Source of the DNA: Clostridia bacterium
GTDB lineage: Bacteria > Bacillota > Clostridia > HGM11327
DNA: 64,000 nucleotides
Reading direction: 5' to 3'
Assembly (NCBI GenBank): GCA_045627045.1
Contig: JAZQMY010000051.1
Coordinates: forward strand, 29,771 to 93,770
Every line of letters begins with the position of its first letter. Within the stretch, counting starts at the first letter, position 1. Of the stretch, positions 15,977-18,451 are shown one piece after another. Both the position numbers and the translations under genes were made by a program. Below the pieces are notes generated by a model that did no database searches, was not told where the DNA came from, and saw nothing but the letters and a program-made list of their open reading frames with translations.

Positions 15977-18451
15977 GTGAAAAGAACAAAAATTGCAATA
16001 TTGCTTATTGCGATCATTACACTCGTTGCCCTTTTTGCAGGATGCGATTCATGCAAAGACGGACACACGGAAGAAATCCTTTCCGCAAAGGAAGCAACCT
16101 GCACGGAAACAGGACTTACCGAGGGTAAGAAATGCTCTGTCTGCGGACAGATAACCGTTGCACAGGAAGAAATCCCCGCAAAGGGCCATACTGAAGAGGT
16201 CATCCCCGCAAAGGAAGCGACCTGCACAGAGGACGGACTTACGGAAGGTAAAAAGTGCTCTGTATGCGGCATGGTGATCACTGCACAGGAAACTGTTCCT
16301 GCGGCAGGACATACGGAAGTGATCGACGCAGGCAAGGAAGCACAGGCTTATGCCGACGGACTTACGGAAGGCAAGCATTGCTCTGTATGCGGCACGGTGA
16401 TCGTTGCACAGGAGGTCATTCCTGCTCTGGGCGGCAATGCCGGCAAGGAATTCAATATCCCCGAGAACGTGAAGTATGATATCGTTATGGACGGAGAATC
16501 GGTTACTGTTTACAAGATAGGCAATAACTACTTTGAGGTTCAGAACGGCGAGGTGTTCGGCATCGTTGAGGGCAAGGACGGTGAGAAGTACATGATCACT
16601 TACAGCCCTGTAATAGATATCAGTATAAGATCATATGAGCCTGTCAGTCAGGATATCGTTGACAGCTACCTCGATTCAATGCTCCTTCTCACAACAAGAG
16701 AAATGGCTCTTACGGCAGAACCTGACCACTCAAAGGATAAGGAAGTAGACGGCGTACACTGCACGGCATACTGCATAGAGGATGAAGGTATGAGCTATGT
16801 TATCTACCTCGGCTCTGAAACGGGTATGGTAATGAGCGGTGCCACGGTGGTTGACGGTAACGAAGTAACTGTTCTTGAAATCAGCAATTACGATACTTCG
16901 GTTGACAGCTATGAATCACTTGTACCGAAGTGCCTTGTTACGGGCGATGATGAAGATCACGTTTACGGCGACTGGGTCGAAACACAGAAACAGACCTGCT
17001 TCTGGAACGGATACAAGAACAGAACATGCGAGAAGTGCGGACACGTTGAAACTGTCATGACGCCTGCCGATCCTGCTCTTCACGAGATAGACGATACGTG
17101 GACGACAGACTGGGATAACACAAAGCACTTCCATTACTGCAAGTCTTGCGGTGTACATTTTGATGAAGCTGAACACGATATAGTAATTGATGAAGGTATT
17201 CCTGCTACAACAACACAGGCAGGTCTTTCGGACGGCTCTCATTGCGCTGTTTGCGGAGCTGTGATCAAGACAAGAGAAATAATCCCTGCACTTGAAACCG
17301 AAGACGACGACAAAGAGGACGAAGAAGGCTACTATCTCAAGATTGAATCAGAAGAAGACTCGTTTGAGATCATTAATATCAAGAACATATTTTGCTGCAG
17401 AACAGAGGGCGAAACAATGGGTCTGATCCTGAAAGAAGACGGATACAGGATGTTCCTGTGGTCCGGCAATGAAAAATCAGGCGCTATTATTAACAGCATA
17501 ATGGATGAAGACAATGCAAAGGAGTTCAAGGATGGTATGCTCTTTAGCGAGGTAGTTGCACTTATTGCCGGTGGCGAGCGAGCAGATGAGTACGACAAGA
17601 CTATTGCGGGAAAGACGTGTGAGGCGTATGTAGTTGAAGAAGATGGCAAAACGGGAATTGTCTACATTGAACCGGAAACCAACCTTTTCTTCGGACTTTC
17701 AGAAATCGTTAATGGCGAAGCTGTTGTCGTATATTGTGTTTCTGAATATGAAGATGGAGTTGATTCACTCGACAGATTTGAAATTCCTGAATGCTTTTTC
17801 AGCGGCGAGCATGAGTTCGGCGAATGGGAAGTAACACAGGAGCAGGATTGCTTCTGGAACGGATACAAAAACAGAACCTGTGAGAAGTGCGGCTACACGG
17901 AAGAAGAAGTGACACCTGCCGATCCCGAGCTCCACGTTCCTTCAGAGGAAATGATGTATGATGATGACAAACATTATTATTATTGCACGACCTGTGGCAT
18001 TCACATTGACGAAGAAGAGCATAAGTTCGGTGAACCGTATGATGAGAGCGAAGCAACATGCGCCTGCGAAGGAAGCTACTGGATCACCTGCGAGGTATGC
18101 GGATACAATGACTATGTAATAGAAGAAAAGTCAGATGTTCACACATATACATACGGTTTCTGCTCATATGAAGCTCCTACGGAGGAAGAGGAAGGCTATA
18201 TCACATTTGAATGCGATTGCTCTGATTCGACGGAAGTAAAATTTGTTCTGCCGGCTCTTTCAGAGGAAAATTACGAAAAGAGAACGGAAGATTACCTGAT
18301 CTATTATGTTATGGACGGAACTGATCTTGTGAACGAAATCAGAGACAGGTGCCCCGGAATCAGCGATGCTGACATTGCGGATGCTTTGTATTATGCTTCG
18401 GATCTGATTACGGAAGACGGTCTCTATGCATGGACAGCATTCAATTTCTGA
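15977..18451 (+). CDS. Large lipoprotein with tandem Cys/His-containing repeats (extracellular zinc-ribbon-like modules)
   Basis: GTG start with AGGAGG RBS; lipobox LFAG-C; three ~40-aa repeats (GHTEE...ATCTExGLTEGKKCSVCG); two copies of a QxCFWNGYKNRTCEKCG module; acidic linker. Confidence 0.6.
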   Translation: MKRTKIAILLIAIITLVALFAGCDSCKDGHTEEILSAKEATCTETGLTEGKKCSVCGQITVAQEEIPAKGHTEEVIPAKEATCTEDGLTEGKKCSVCGMVITAQETVPAAGHTEVIDAGKEAQAYADGLTEGKHCSVCGTVIVAQEVIPALGGNAGKEFNIPENVKYDIVMDGESVTVYKIGNNYFEVQNGEVFGIVEGKDGEKYMITYSPVIDISIRSYEPVSQDIVDSYLDSMLLLTTREMALTAEPDHSKDKEVDGVHCTAYCIEDEGMSYVIYLGSETGMVMSGATVVDGNEVTVLEISNYDTSVDSYESLVPKCLVTGDDEDHVYGDWVETQKQTCFWNGYKNRTCEKCGHVETVMTPADPALHEIDDTWTTDWDNTKHFHYCKSCGVHFDEAEHDIVIDEGIPATTTQAGLSDGSHCAVCGAVIKTREIIPALETEDDDKEDEEGYYLKIESEEDSFEIINIKNIFCCRTEGETMGLILKEDGYRMFLWSGNEKSGAIINSIMDEDNAKEFKDGMLFSEVVALIAGGERADEYDKTIAGKTCEAYVVEEDGKTGIVYIEPETNLFFGLSEIVNGEAVVVYCVSEYEDGVDSLDRFEIPECFFSGEHEFGEWEVTQEQDCFWNGYKNRTCEKCGYTEEEVTPADPELHVPSEEMMYDDDKHYYYCTTCGIHIDEEEHKFGEPYDESEATCACEGSYWITCEVCGYNDYVIEEKSDVHTYTYGFCSYEAPTEEEEGYITFECDCSDSTEVKFVLPALSEENYEKRTEDYLIYYVMDGTDLVNEIRDRCPGISDADIADALYYASDLITEDGLYAWTAFNF

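What the first reader, a model, noticed from the sequence alone, without database searches (positions are those of the whole stretch)
15977..18451. 824-aa lipoprotein built from Cys/His knuckle repeats: possible extracellular metal-binding repeat protein with internal duplication
After a lipobox (LFAG|C) the protein has three tandem ~40-aa units, each with one His and three Cys (GHTEE...ATCTE.GLTEGKKCSVCG). The DNA shows matching ~120-nt degenerate repeats at 16060..16440. Two halves follow, each ending in a strictly conserved QxCFWNGYKNRTCEKCG module (16990 and 17841), plus further CxxC..H pairs. Regular Cys3His/Cys4 spacing in a secreted lipoprotein suggests zinc-ribbon-like knuckles in an extracytoplasmic protein, which is unusual. 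I cannot place it in a known family.
Basis: seen in the sequence. Interest (0 to 1): 0.55.

Follow-up and report, generated by a model that had tools for sequence, protein, structure and literature searches.

The report
Zinc-stapled stalk lipoprotein with LolA-like domains
This gene encodes a surface-anchored lipoprotein of an uncultured gut Clostridia bacterium, in which small Cys/His beta-sheet modules (probably stapled together by zinc) form rigid stalk segments carrying two lipid-carrier-like domains; the module is very common in gut bacteria, has no curated family, and was first noticed in 2025 in one IgA protease.

Summary
ORF 15977-18451 (+) encodes an 824-aa protein with a lipobox, three tandem 41-aa units (123-nt DNA repeats) and a duplicated ~260-aa half. 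One correction: unit 3 lacks the first Cys.

The 41-aa unit (H2, C14, C25-x2-C28) is not rare. At least 7,756 protein clusters carry it, fused to cohesin, dockerin, SLH, BspA-LRR, Big_2, fn3 and enzymes. In 1,082 unique units the four positions are 97-100% conserved. No Pfam or NCBIfam model covers it.

It is homologous to ZBD1/ZBD2 (also called CTD2/CTD4) of the Thomasclavelia ramosa IgA protease. Those domains were proposed in 2025, from AlphaFold models and SAXS, to be zinc-stabilised "periscope" stalk domains of a new fold.

AlphaFold2 gives a confident all-beta model (pLDDT 91). Its only, weak, structural neighbours are SasG/Aap G5 rods, not zinc ribbons. Array-boundary statistics suggest each zinc links C14 of one unit to H2 and CxxC of the next.

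Verdict: a new member of a recently described, uncurated kind. Zinc binding is inferred, not shown.

The parts
15907..15969 (+). Promoter-like site (TTGACT-17-TAAAAT with TG, 15907-15935) and ribosome-binding site AGGAGGA (15963-15969)
   Evidence: consensus matches only
15977..18451 (+). ORF for the 824-aa lipoprotein (GTG start; stop codon included)
   Evidence: 100% identical to P0001, a single-member cluster from NCBI
15977..16045 (+). Signal peptide with lipobox LFAG|C (aa 1-23; Cys23 is the predicted lipidated residue)
   Evidence: sequence; lipobox regular expression
16052..16054 (+). Cys26, the proposed 'starter' ligand 4 residues before His30
   Evidence: inference from array-start statistics
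16061..16429 (+). Three tandem 41-aa units (aa 29-69, 70-110, 111-151) with H2, C14, C25-x2-C28; unit 3 lacks C14
   Evidence: AF2 pLDDT 91.4
16433..16936 (+). Globular domain 1 (aa 153-320), LolA/RseB/LprG-like fold by homology with domain 2; ends in conserved Cys319
16958..17083 (+). Module a (aa 328-369): H-x-Y-G-D-W...Q-T-C-FWNGYKNRT-C-EK-C-G...H, the 'GEW' variant of the unit
17126..17176 (+). Module b (aa 384-400): H-x-H-x-C-x2-C-x8-H
   Evidence: aligns to IgAse ZBD1 subdomain II
17171..17293 (+). Fourth, degenerate 41-aa unit (aa 399-439) lacking C14
   Evidence: E 1e-9; aligns to IgAse ZBD1 subdomain III, which also lacks that Cys
17294..17332 (+). Acidic linker ETEDDDKEDEEGY (aa 440-452); nt 17306-17332 (aa 444-452) overlap the nominal start of globular domain 2
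   Evidence: sequence; pLDDT <50 for the first 10 residues of the second model
17306..17797 (+). Globular domain 2 (aa 444-607), LolA/RseB/LprG-like open beta-barrel with two helices; ends in conserved Cys606
17810..18142 (+). Modules a', b', c' (aa 612-722): H612, C625, C635/C638, H653, H666, C670/C673, H682, C695, C705/C708, H722
   Evidence: these residues are conserved in P0123
18140..18448 (+). Terminal CxC module (C746, C748) and C-terminal alpha/beta domain (aa 722-824), fold not identified
   Evidence: pLDDT 75-83
18471..18505 (+). Intrinsic-terminator-like hairpin followed by a T run

Best explanation
The gene encodes a membrane-anchored surface lipoprotein of an uncultured Oscillospirales (Acutalibacteraceae-like) gut or rumen bacterium.

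Its Cys/His modules are small three-stranded beta-sheets joined end to end into stiff rods. They belong to the same superfamily as ZBD1/ZBD2 (= CTD2/CTD4) of the T. ramosa IgA protease. Tetrahedral zinc sites hold the rods together and take the role that disulfides play in oxic secreted proteins.

The most likely geometry is inter-unit. Cys14, at the tip of a finger of unit i, completes the site formed by His2 and the C25-x2-C28 knuckle at the base of unit i+1. At the start of an array a nearby Cys or His supplies the missing ligand (here C26, C319 and C606). The last unit of an array needs no Cys14, which is why units 3 and 4 lack it. This gives up to 10 sites in the protein.

The rods act as spacers ('periscope' segments). 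They hold two LolA-like domains, which presumably bind a hydrophobic ligand or a partner protein, and a C-terminal domain away from the membrane.

Shown here: the ORF, the lipobox pattern, the repeats, residue conservation, homology, a confident beta model and the LolA-like fold.

Inferred: zinc occupancy, the inter-unit ligand assignment, rod rigidity (SAXS exists only for IgAse CTD2) and what the LolA-like domains bind.
For: Family size and partners:
- At least 7,756 homologous clusters carry the unit, together with extracellular partner domains.
- 32 of the 120 sequences analysed (the window protein plus its 119 listed homologues) have a lipobox. In 30 of these 32 the first unit starts 6-94 aa after the lipid Cys.

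Conservation:
- H2, C14, C25 and C28 are 97-100% conserved.
- All 700 internal units carry the complete H + 3 Cys set.

Support for inter-unit zinc sites:
- C14 is lost only in last or solo units, and all but one of these are not followed by a His.
- 87 of 158 array ends finish in an H...CxxC module without C14.
- An extra Cys or His lies within 8 aa upstream of the first His in 32 of 57 dereplicated array starts, against 55 of 1,069 internal modules (Fisher p = 1.6e-23).
- C319 and C606 are conserved only in domain copies that are followed by Cys modules.

Structure:
- AF2 of aa 24-160 gives pLDDT 91.4 and an all-beta model.
- The nearest solved structures are SasG/Aap G5-E rods.

Homology to the IgA protease (IgAse):
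- The unit profile matches PDB chain 9qa6 with E = 0.001.
- The IgAse ZBD1 fragment matches P0011, P0065 and P0006 with domain E-values of 6e-12 to 2e-11.
- Direct BLASTP aligns module b plus unit 4 to ZBD1 subdomains II and III.

Literature:
- PMC12415215 reports SAXS showing an extended rod for CTD2 and proposes a purely structural zinc role.

Against: - No metal has been measured for this protein. For the ZBD/CTD domains of IgAse, nothing in what I read of the two papers reports a metal measurement.
- 25 of 57 array starts show no upstream extra ligand.
- 37 array ends keep C14 although no His follows. About 25 of these come from one scaffoldin family.
- The inter-unit model rests on boundary statistics drawn from 120 sequences that were selected by similarity to the query.
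- The LolA-like assignment rests on a 5-sequence AF2 model. No Pfam family reaches significance (best is MucB_RseB, E = 0.081).
- The direct sequence link to IgAse is marginal (E = 0.001 to 0.01). The stronger link is transitive.
Confidence: 0.7

Rival explanations
1. The units are self-contained zinc knuckles. Each 41-aa unit binds its own zinc through H2, C14, C25 and C28, as beads on a string.
For: - An upstream His is present at 127 of 134 array starts, while 102 of 158 array ends have no downstream His. His2 therefore belongs with the Cys residues that follow it.
- The H-x11-C-x10-C-x2-C spacing is regular.
Against: - This model does not explain why C14 is lost only in terminal units.
- It does not explain why arrays end in H...CxxC caps.
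- It does not explain why array starts carry an extra Cys or His.
- With the up-and-down strand order seen in the model (strands at unit positions 4-7, 22-25 and 31-33), C14 sits at the opposite end of the sheet from H2 and the knuckle. This last point is my inference.
- The published IgAse models place the sites between subdomains (PMC12237041).
Confidence: 0.2
2. The protein is an extracellular metal buffer or scavenger. It would be analogous in role to pneumococcal polyhistidine-triad proteins (comparison from my own knowledge), with Cys/His sites that take up and release zinc or another metal for uptake systems.
For: - The protein has many putative sites, up to 10.
- It is located at the surface.
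- Ion-transport genes lie nearby: TrkA/TrkH, CitMHS and CNNM/CorC.
Against: - The sites are fully coordinated Cys3His or Cys2His2, the type typical of structural, non-exchanging zinc.
- The same module sits in thousands of unrelated enzymes, scaffoldins and adhesins.
- The gene is monocistronic.
- None of the 8 flanking genes I scanned (9647-24722) is a zinc ABC importer or a recognisable zinc regulator.
Confidence: 0.05
3. The Cys residues form disulfides or serve redox chemistry rather than binding zinc. The units would be a Kazal/EGF-like disulfide-knotted repeat or rubredoxin-like iron sites.
For: - The unit profile gives weak matches to Kazal inhibitors (E = 0.001 to 0.1).
- aa 385-429 aligns weakly to rubredoxins, with CxxC-x31-CxxC spacing (E = 0.026).
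Against: - Each unit has three Cys plus an invariant His. It does not have the six-Cys Kazal pattern or a Cys4 site.
- The host is an anaerobe.
- IgAse showed no disulfides and needed reducing agent to stay monodisperse (PMC12237041).
- The rubredoxin-like stretch aligns instead to two separate IgAse subdomains.
Confidence: 0.05

Closest known systems
ZBD1/ZBD2 (PMC12237041) = CTD2/CTD4 'metal-associated periscope domains' (PMC12415215) of the Thomasclavelia ramosa M64 IgA protease (PDB chain 9qa6 carries the sequence)
   Same: - Sequence-homologous Cys/His modules.
- Small three-stranded sheets arranged end to end.
- Predicted tetrahedral Cys/His zinc sites linking the sheets.
- Extracellular position between the anchor and the functional domains.
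- No structural neighbour other than G5 rods.
   Different: - IgAse has 2-3 heterogeneous subdomains per domain, mostly with 2 His + 2 Cys sites, next to a C-terminal sortase anchor.
- The window protein has regular 41-aa His + 3 Cys tandem units directly after an N-terminal lipid anchor, plus variant modules, combined with LolA-like domains instead of a protease.
- In neither protein has zinc been measured in these domains.
SasG/Aap G5-E repeat 'periscope' rods of staphylococci
   Same: - Elongated single-layer beta-sheet rods without a hydrophobic core that project surface domains.
   Different: - No sequence homology, and the matches are weak.
- G5 rods have no Cys/His sites.
- Zinc in Aap mediates dimerisation through surface His/Asp/Glu sites, not intrachain stapling (PMC12415215).
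Classical zinc ribbons and rubredoxin knuckles (e.g. the TFIIS C-terminal domain)
   Same: - A CxxCG knuckle at a beta-hairpin turn.
- Sub-threshold Pfam hits to A24_N_bact, zf-Vps39_C and Auto_anti-p27.
- PMC12237041 notes a distant resemblance of ZBD1 subdomain I to the TFIIS domain.
   Different: - Each unit has only one CxxC knuckle.
- No zinc ribbon appears among the fold-search hits.
- The location is extracellular and the units form long tandem rods.
LolA/LolB/RseB/MucB/LprG superfamily (for the two globular domains)
   Different: - No significant sequence-family match.
- The domain is duplicated and embedded between Cys/His rods.
- The host is presumably a monoderm, which has no outer membrane to sort lipoproteins to.
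- The ligand is unknown.

Membership tests
IgAse ZBD/CTD2-CTD4 metal-associated periscope domain superfamily | Sequence homology to ZBD1/ZBD2 | tested here: met
   The unit profile A2 matches chain 9qa6_A residues 850-978 with E = 0.001. The IgAse fragment matches query homologues P0011, P0065, P0006 and P0026 with domain E-values of 6e-12 to 7e-10. Direct BLASTP gives E = 0.009-0.01 with ligand positions aligned. The direct link is marginal and the transitive link is strong.
IgAse ZBD/CTD2-CTD4 metal-associated periscope domain superfamily | Conserved Cys/His sets able to form tetrahedral sites | tested here: met
   H2 97%, C14 99%, C25 and C28 100% in 1,082 unique units. All Cys/His of modules a'-c' are conserved in P0123.
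IgAse ZBD/CTD2-CTD4 metal-associated periscope domain superfamily | Extended rod of small beta-sheets with no close solved homologue | tested here: met
IgAse ZBD/CTD2-CTD4 metal-associated periscope domain superfamily | Bound zinc | not testable with these tools
   Needs ICP-MS, EXAFS or a crystal structure. It is also unmeasured for the IgAse domains (PMC12237041, PMC12415215).
Classical zinc ribbon | Two CxxC (or CxxH) knuckles from two hairpins around one zinc | tested here: not met
   Canonical units have one CxxC, a lone Cys and a lone His. Pfam zinc-ribbon families score below their cut-offs.
Classical zinc ribbon | Fold similarity to solved zinc ribbons | tested here: inconclusive
Bacterial lipoprotein | Positively charged n-region, hydrophobic h-region and lipobox [LVI..][ASTG][GAS]C within the first ~35 residues | tested here: met
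   MKRTK-IAILLIAIITLVALFAG-C23. Lipidation itself is not testable here.
LolA/RseB/LprG-like fold superfamily | Open (unclosed) antiparallel beta-barrel with helical insert | tested here: met
LolA/RseB/LprG-like fold superfamily | Membership of a sequence family (Pfam LolA, MucB_RseB, LppX_LprAFG and similar) | tested here: not met
   The best hit is MucB_RseB at E = 0.081, for one of five domain copies. Nothing matched in PDB by sequence.
Kazal-type inhibitor domain | Six Cys forming three disulfides | tested here: not met
   Each unit has only three Cys. The profile match (E = 0.001 to 0.1) covers only the C...G.T.G.KC..C stretch.

The most novel reading that the evidence does not exclude
The whole superfamily may be an interlocked rod in which every zinc bridges two neighbouring units. 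The length and stiffness of surface stalks on gut Clostridia would then depend on available zinc, for example falling apart under host zinc sequestration. That would affect display of cohesins, enzymes, adhesins and, here, two LolA-like lipid- or partner-binding domains. In this protein, the C14-less units abutting each LolA-like domain would be the points where rod and cargo are coupled.
Probability: 0.12. Interest if true: 0.75.

Novelty: new member of a known kind. Interest (0 to 1): 0.5.

Why it matters
The module is one of the commoner building blocks of surface proteins in gut and rumen Clostridia, with at least 7,756 clusters and up to 19 units per protein among the top hits. It nevertheless has no Pfam or NCBIfam model, no solved structure and no metal measurement. 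It has been discussed only for a single IgA protease.

Three steps would follow from this:
- Defining the family.
- Settling whether zinc links adjacent units.
- Testing whether stalk integrity is zinc-dependent.

These would improve annotation of thousands of 'hypothetical' proteins, including cellulosome or amylosome-type scaffoldins. They would also give a testable case of Cys-based zinc sites used outside the cell in anaerobes.

The LolA-like pair in this protein is a separate, nearly orphan feature of unknown ligand.

Tried and rejected
- **Pfam and NCBIfam on the whole protein.** Only sub-threshold hits: A24_N_bact, zf-Vps39_C and OsmE. The precomputed 'Pfam domains' on homologues (Auto_anti-p27, EGF_LMN_ATRN, DUF4907, DUF7479) are sums of many weak knuckle matches with no stretch passing on its own. 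I rejected them as annotation.
- **The search for homologous proteins with the two-copy domain alignment A1.** It returned nothing, not even the query protein. The same profile scores 577 bits on the query locally. I treated this as a tool artefact, not a negative result.
- **Exact look-up of the protein's contig.** Not on record.
- **Cluster look-up.** Single member, unnamed.
- **GTDB representative genomes searched with aa 440-824.** No relative found.
- **Search with P0123.** It found only itself.
- **Keyword literature searches** (zinc ribbon + dockerin, cysteine-rich repeat + cohesin, and similar). Nothing found. The link to the IgAse papers came only through the PDB sequence hit.
- **Model 'His of the next unit completes the site' (C14, C25, C28 of unit i plus H2 of unit i+1).** Rejected because array starts almost always have the His and array ends often lack it.
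- **Idea that His24 compensates for a lost C14.** Rejected: among the C14-less units of homologues, position 24 is H, K, Y or V with no enrichment of His.
- **P0121.** An SH3b-repeat protein and a spurious hit.
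Full report
**1. Observation**

The ORF at 15977..18451 (+ strand, GTG start, 824 aa) is real. AGGAGGA lies 7 nt upstream and a sigma-70-like site at 15907-15935. A GC-rich hairpin with a T run at 18471-18494 follows the stop codon. A tRNA-Val gene on the opposite strand (15676-15752) separates it from the upstream gene. The gene therefore looks monocistronic. Its neighbours are functionally unrelated: TrkA/TrkH, a DUF5696 protein, a CitMHS transporter and CNNM/CorC.

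The N-terminus MKRTKIAILLIAIITLVALFAG|C fits the lipobox rule. Tandem Repeats Finder gives a 123-nt period with 2.9 copies at 16061-16413. A fourth, degenerate copy lies at 17219-17289. The halves aa 168-427 and aa 455-709 align with a score of 406, against 44 +/- 8 for shuffles, at 34% identity.

There is one slip in the finding. Unit 3 (aa 111-151) lacks the first Cys, as does the fourth unit (aa 399-439).

**2. The repeat is a very large, uncurated extracellular family**

A database search returned 7,756 clusters with E <= 0.001 among the 8,000 candidates scored. The count is therefore a lower bound. The 120 sequences analysed are the window protein plus its 119 listed homologues. They carry 4-19 canonical units each, with a median of 11.

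Partner domains that I verified by Pfam are cohesin, dockerin, Big_2, SLH, CAP, BspA-type LRR, metallo-beta-lactamase, Listeria-Bacteroides repeat, fn3, choline-binding repeats and transglutaminase core. Of the 120 sequences, 32 have a lipobox. In 30 of these 32 the first unit begins 6-94 residues after the lipid Cys. Five others end in a transmembrane helix with a basic tail.

Neither Pfam (2025 copy) nor NCBIfam (2026) has a model for the unit. The 'domains' precomputed on homologues are summed weak hits to assorted zinc-ribbon families.

**3. Conservation**

In 1,082 unique 41-aa units the most conserved columns are:
- H2, 97%
- C14, 99%
- G18, 100%
- G22, 97%
- C25, 100%
- C28, 100%

The 'QxCFWNGYKNRTCEKCG' module is the widespread 'H-x-[FWY]-G-E-W...C...G...R-x-C-x2-C' variant of the same unit. 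Module b (H-x3-C-x2-C-x8-H) is another recurrent variant.

**4. Link to known work**

A profile of the units matches one PDB chain, 9qa6_A, the T. ramosa IgA protease, at residues 850-978 (E = 0.001). That fragment in turn matches proteins that also carry canonical units, with domain E-values of 6e-12 to 7e-10. Direct BLASTP aligns the window's module b plus unit 4 to the protease's subdomains II and III. The shared features include the missing first Cys, ATTTQAG here against ATATTAG in the protease.

Two 2025 papers describe these protease domains.
- PMC12237041 calls them ZBD1 and ZBD2. [quoted passage not shown] - PMC12415215 calls them CTD2 and CTD4. It shows by SAXS that CTD2 is a fully extended rod, likens them to SasG/Aap G5 domains, and proposes a purely structural zinc role in a stalk that projects the enzyme from the cell.

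Neither paper measured metal in these domains. In the parts I read, neither defines a family.

**5. Structure prediction**

AlphaFold2 on aa 24-160 with a 70-row alignment gives mean pLDDT 91.4. The model contains strands only: per unit, strands at positions 4-7, 22-25 and 31-33, plus bridges at 10, 18-19 and 37-38.

**6. Which residues share a zinc**

This section is inference from array boundaries.
- All 700 internal units have H2, C14, C25 and C28. C14 is lost only in last or solo units, and all but one of these are not followed by a His.
- Array starts have the upstream His in 127 of 134 cases.
- Array ends lack a downstream His in 102 of 158 cases and lack C14 in 87 of 158. Typical ends are 'GH-x7-9-CxxC' caps.
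- Among 57 dereplicated array starts, 32 have an extra Cys (19) or His (13, typically H-x-H) within 8 residues before the first His. Among internal modules the figure is 55 of 1,069 (odds ratio 24, p = 1.6e-23).

The simplest reading is that C14 of unit i, on the loop between the bridges at positions 10 and 18-19, completes the site made by H2 and C25-x2-C28 of unit i+1. This agrees with the published 'sites between sheets'.

For this protein the model assigns:
- {C26, H30, C53, C56}
- {C42, H71, C94, C97}
- {C83, H112, C135, C138}
- {C319, H328, C351, C354}
- {C341, H369 or H384, C388, C391}
- {H394?, H400, C423, C426}
- {C606, H612, C635, C638}
- {C625, H653 or H666, C670, C673}
- {H676?, H682, C705, C708}
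- {C695, H722, C746, C748}

The model explains why units 3 and 4, each followed by a globular domain, lack C14. It also explains why C319 and C606 are conserved only in domain copies that are followed by Cys modules.

Caveats: 25 of 57 array starts show no extra ligand. Some array ends keep C14. The sample was selected by similarity to the query.

**7. The globular domains**

A full HMMER scan of 1.84 billion representatives with the two-copy profile found only three other proteins:
- P0123, a 726-aa lipoprotein with the same C-terminal architecture (28% identity over 317 aa, E = 2e-20, all module Cys/His conserved).
- P0122, a 630-aa lipoprotein with one copy of the domain.
- P0121, a spurious SH3b-repeat protein.

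None of the 185,579 GTDB species representatives encodes a relative of aa 440-824.

Sequence searches give only a faint MucB_RseB hint (E = 0.081). The C-terminal ~100 residues form an alpha/beta domain that I could not identify.

**8. Organism**

The window's aspartate kinase is 80% identical to that of an uncultured Clostridia MAG. It is ~70% identical to those of many Acutalibacteraceae and Oscillospiraceae MAGs from guts and rumens. A SpoIID/LytB-domain gene is present.

**9. Verdict**

The finding is real. Its metal-binding reading is well supported by conservation and by independent published modelling, but zinc has not been demonstrated.

The protein is best described as a surface lipoprotein in which zinc-stapled beta-sheet rod modules space out two LolA-like domains. 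The module belongs to a kind already noticed in 2025, so this is a new member rather than a new kind. The family's size, the regular His + 3 Cys tandem form, the inferred inter-unit stapling and the orphan LolA-like pair go beyond what the papers I read describe.

Noticed in passing
window 15676-15752 (- strand): A tRNA-Val (anticodon GAC) gene lies between the DUF5696 gene and the lipoprotein gene. A bidirectional terminator-like hairpin sits at 15603-15631.
   Followed up: partly
window 13773-15593 (+): A 606-aa protein lies immediately upstream. Its only Pfam match is DUF5696 (E = 3e-15). No functional link to the lipoprotein was found.
   Followed up: partly
window 10914-13717 (+): A TrkA (NAD-binding) and TrkH potassium-uptake gene pair. 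Downstream of the lipoprotein are a CitMHS-family transporter (18601-19827) and a CNNM/CBS/CorC protein (20052-21530).
   Followed up: partly
window 21764-24722 and 27391-29922 (+): A subtilase (S8), a 608-aa protein with a C-terminal LysM domain, and an 843-aa SpoIID/LytB-domain protein. Together they suggest a spore-forming Clostridia host.
   Followed up: partly
aa 385-429 of the protein (window ~17129-17263): CKSCGVHFDEAEHD...GIPATT...CAVCGA aligns weakly to rubredoxins (E = 0.026) with rubredoxin-like CxxC-x31-CxxC spacing. This is probably convergence, because the stretch aligns to two separate IgAse subdomains.
   Followed up: partly
homologues P0002-P0120 (unit position 24): The residue before C25 is His in 66% of units (GKHCSVCG) and Lys in 24%. 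In this protein units 1-2 have Lys and the two C14-less units have His. No general compensation pattern was found.
   Followed up: partly
P0122 (630 aa) and P0123 (726 aa), metagenomic lipoproteins: These are the only other proteins found with the LolA-like domain of this protein. P0123 has two copies plus the same Cys/His and C-terminal modules. P0122 has one C-terminal copy behind unrelated N-terminal domains.
   Followed up: partly
tool behaviour: the search for homologous proteins with an alignment query returned no hit, not even the protein the alignment was made from. The same profile scores 577 bits on that protein locally. Negatives from alignment queries of that tool may be unreliable.
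   Followed up: yes
unit profile versus PDB: Kazal-type inhibitor domains (ovomucoid, SPINK and others) match the C...G.T.G.KC..C core of the unit at E = 0.001 to 0.1. The six-Cys disulfide pattern is absent, so this is probably chance or convergence.
   Followed up: partly
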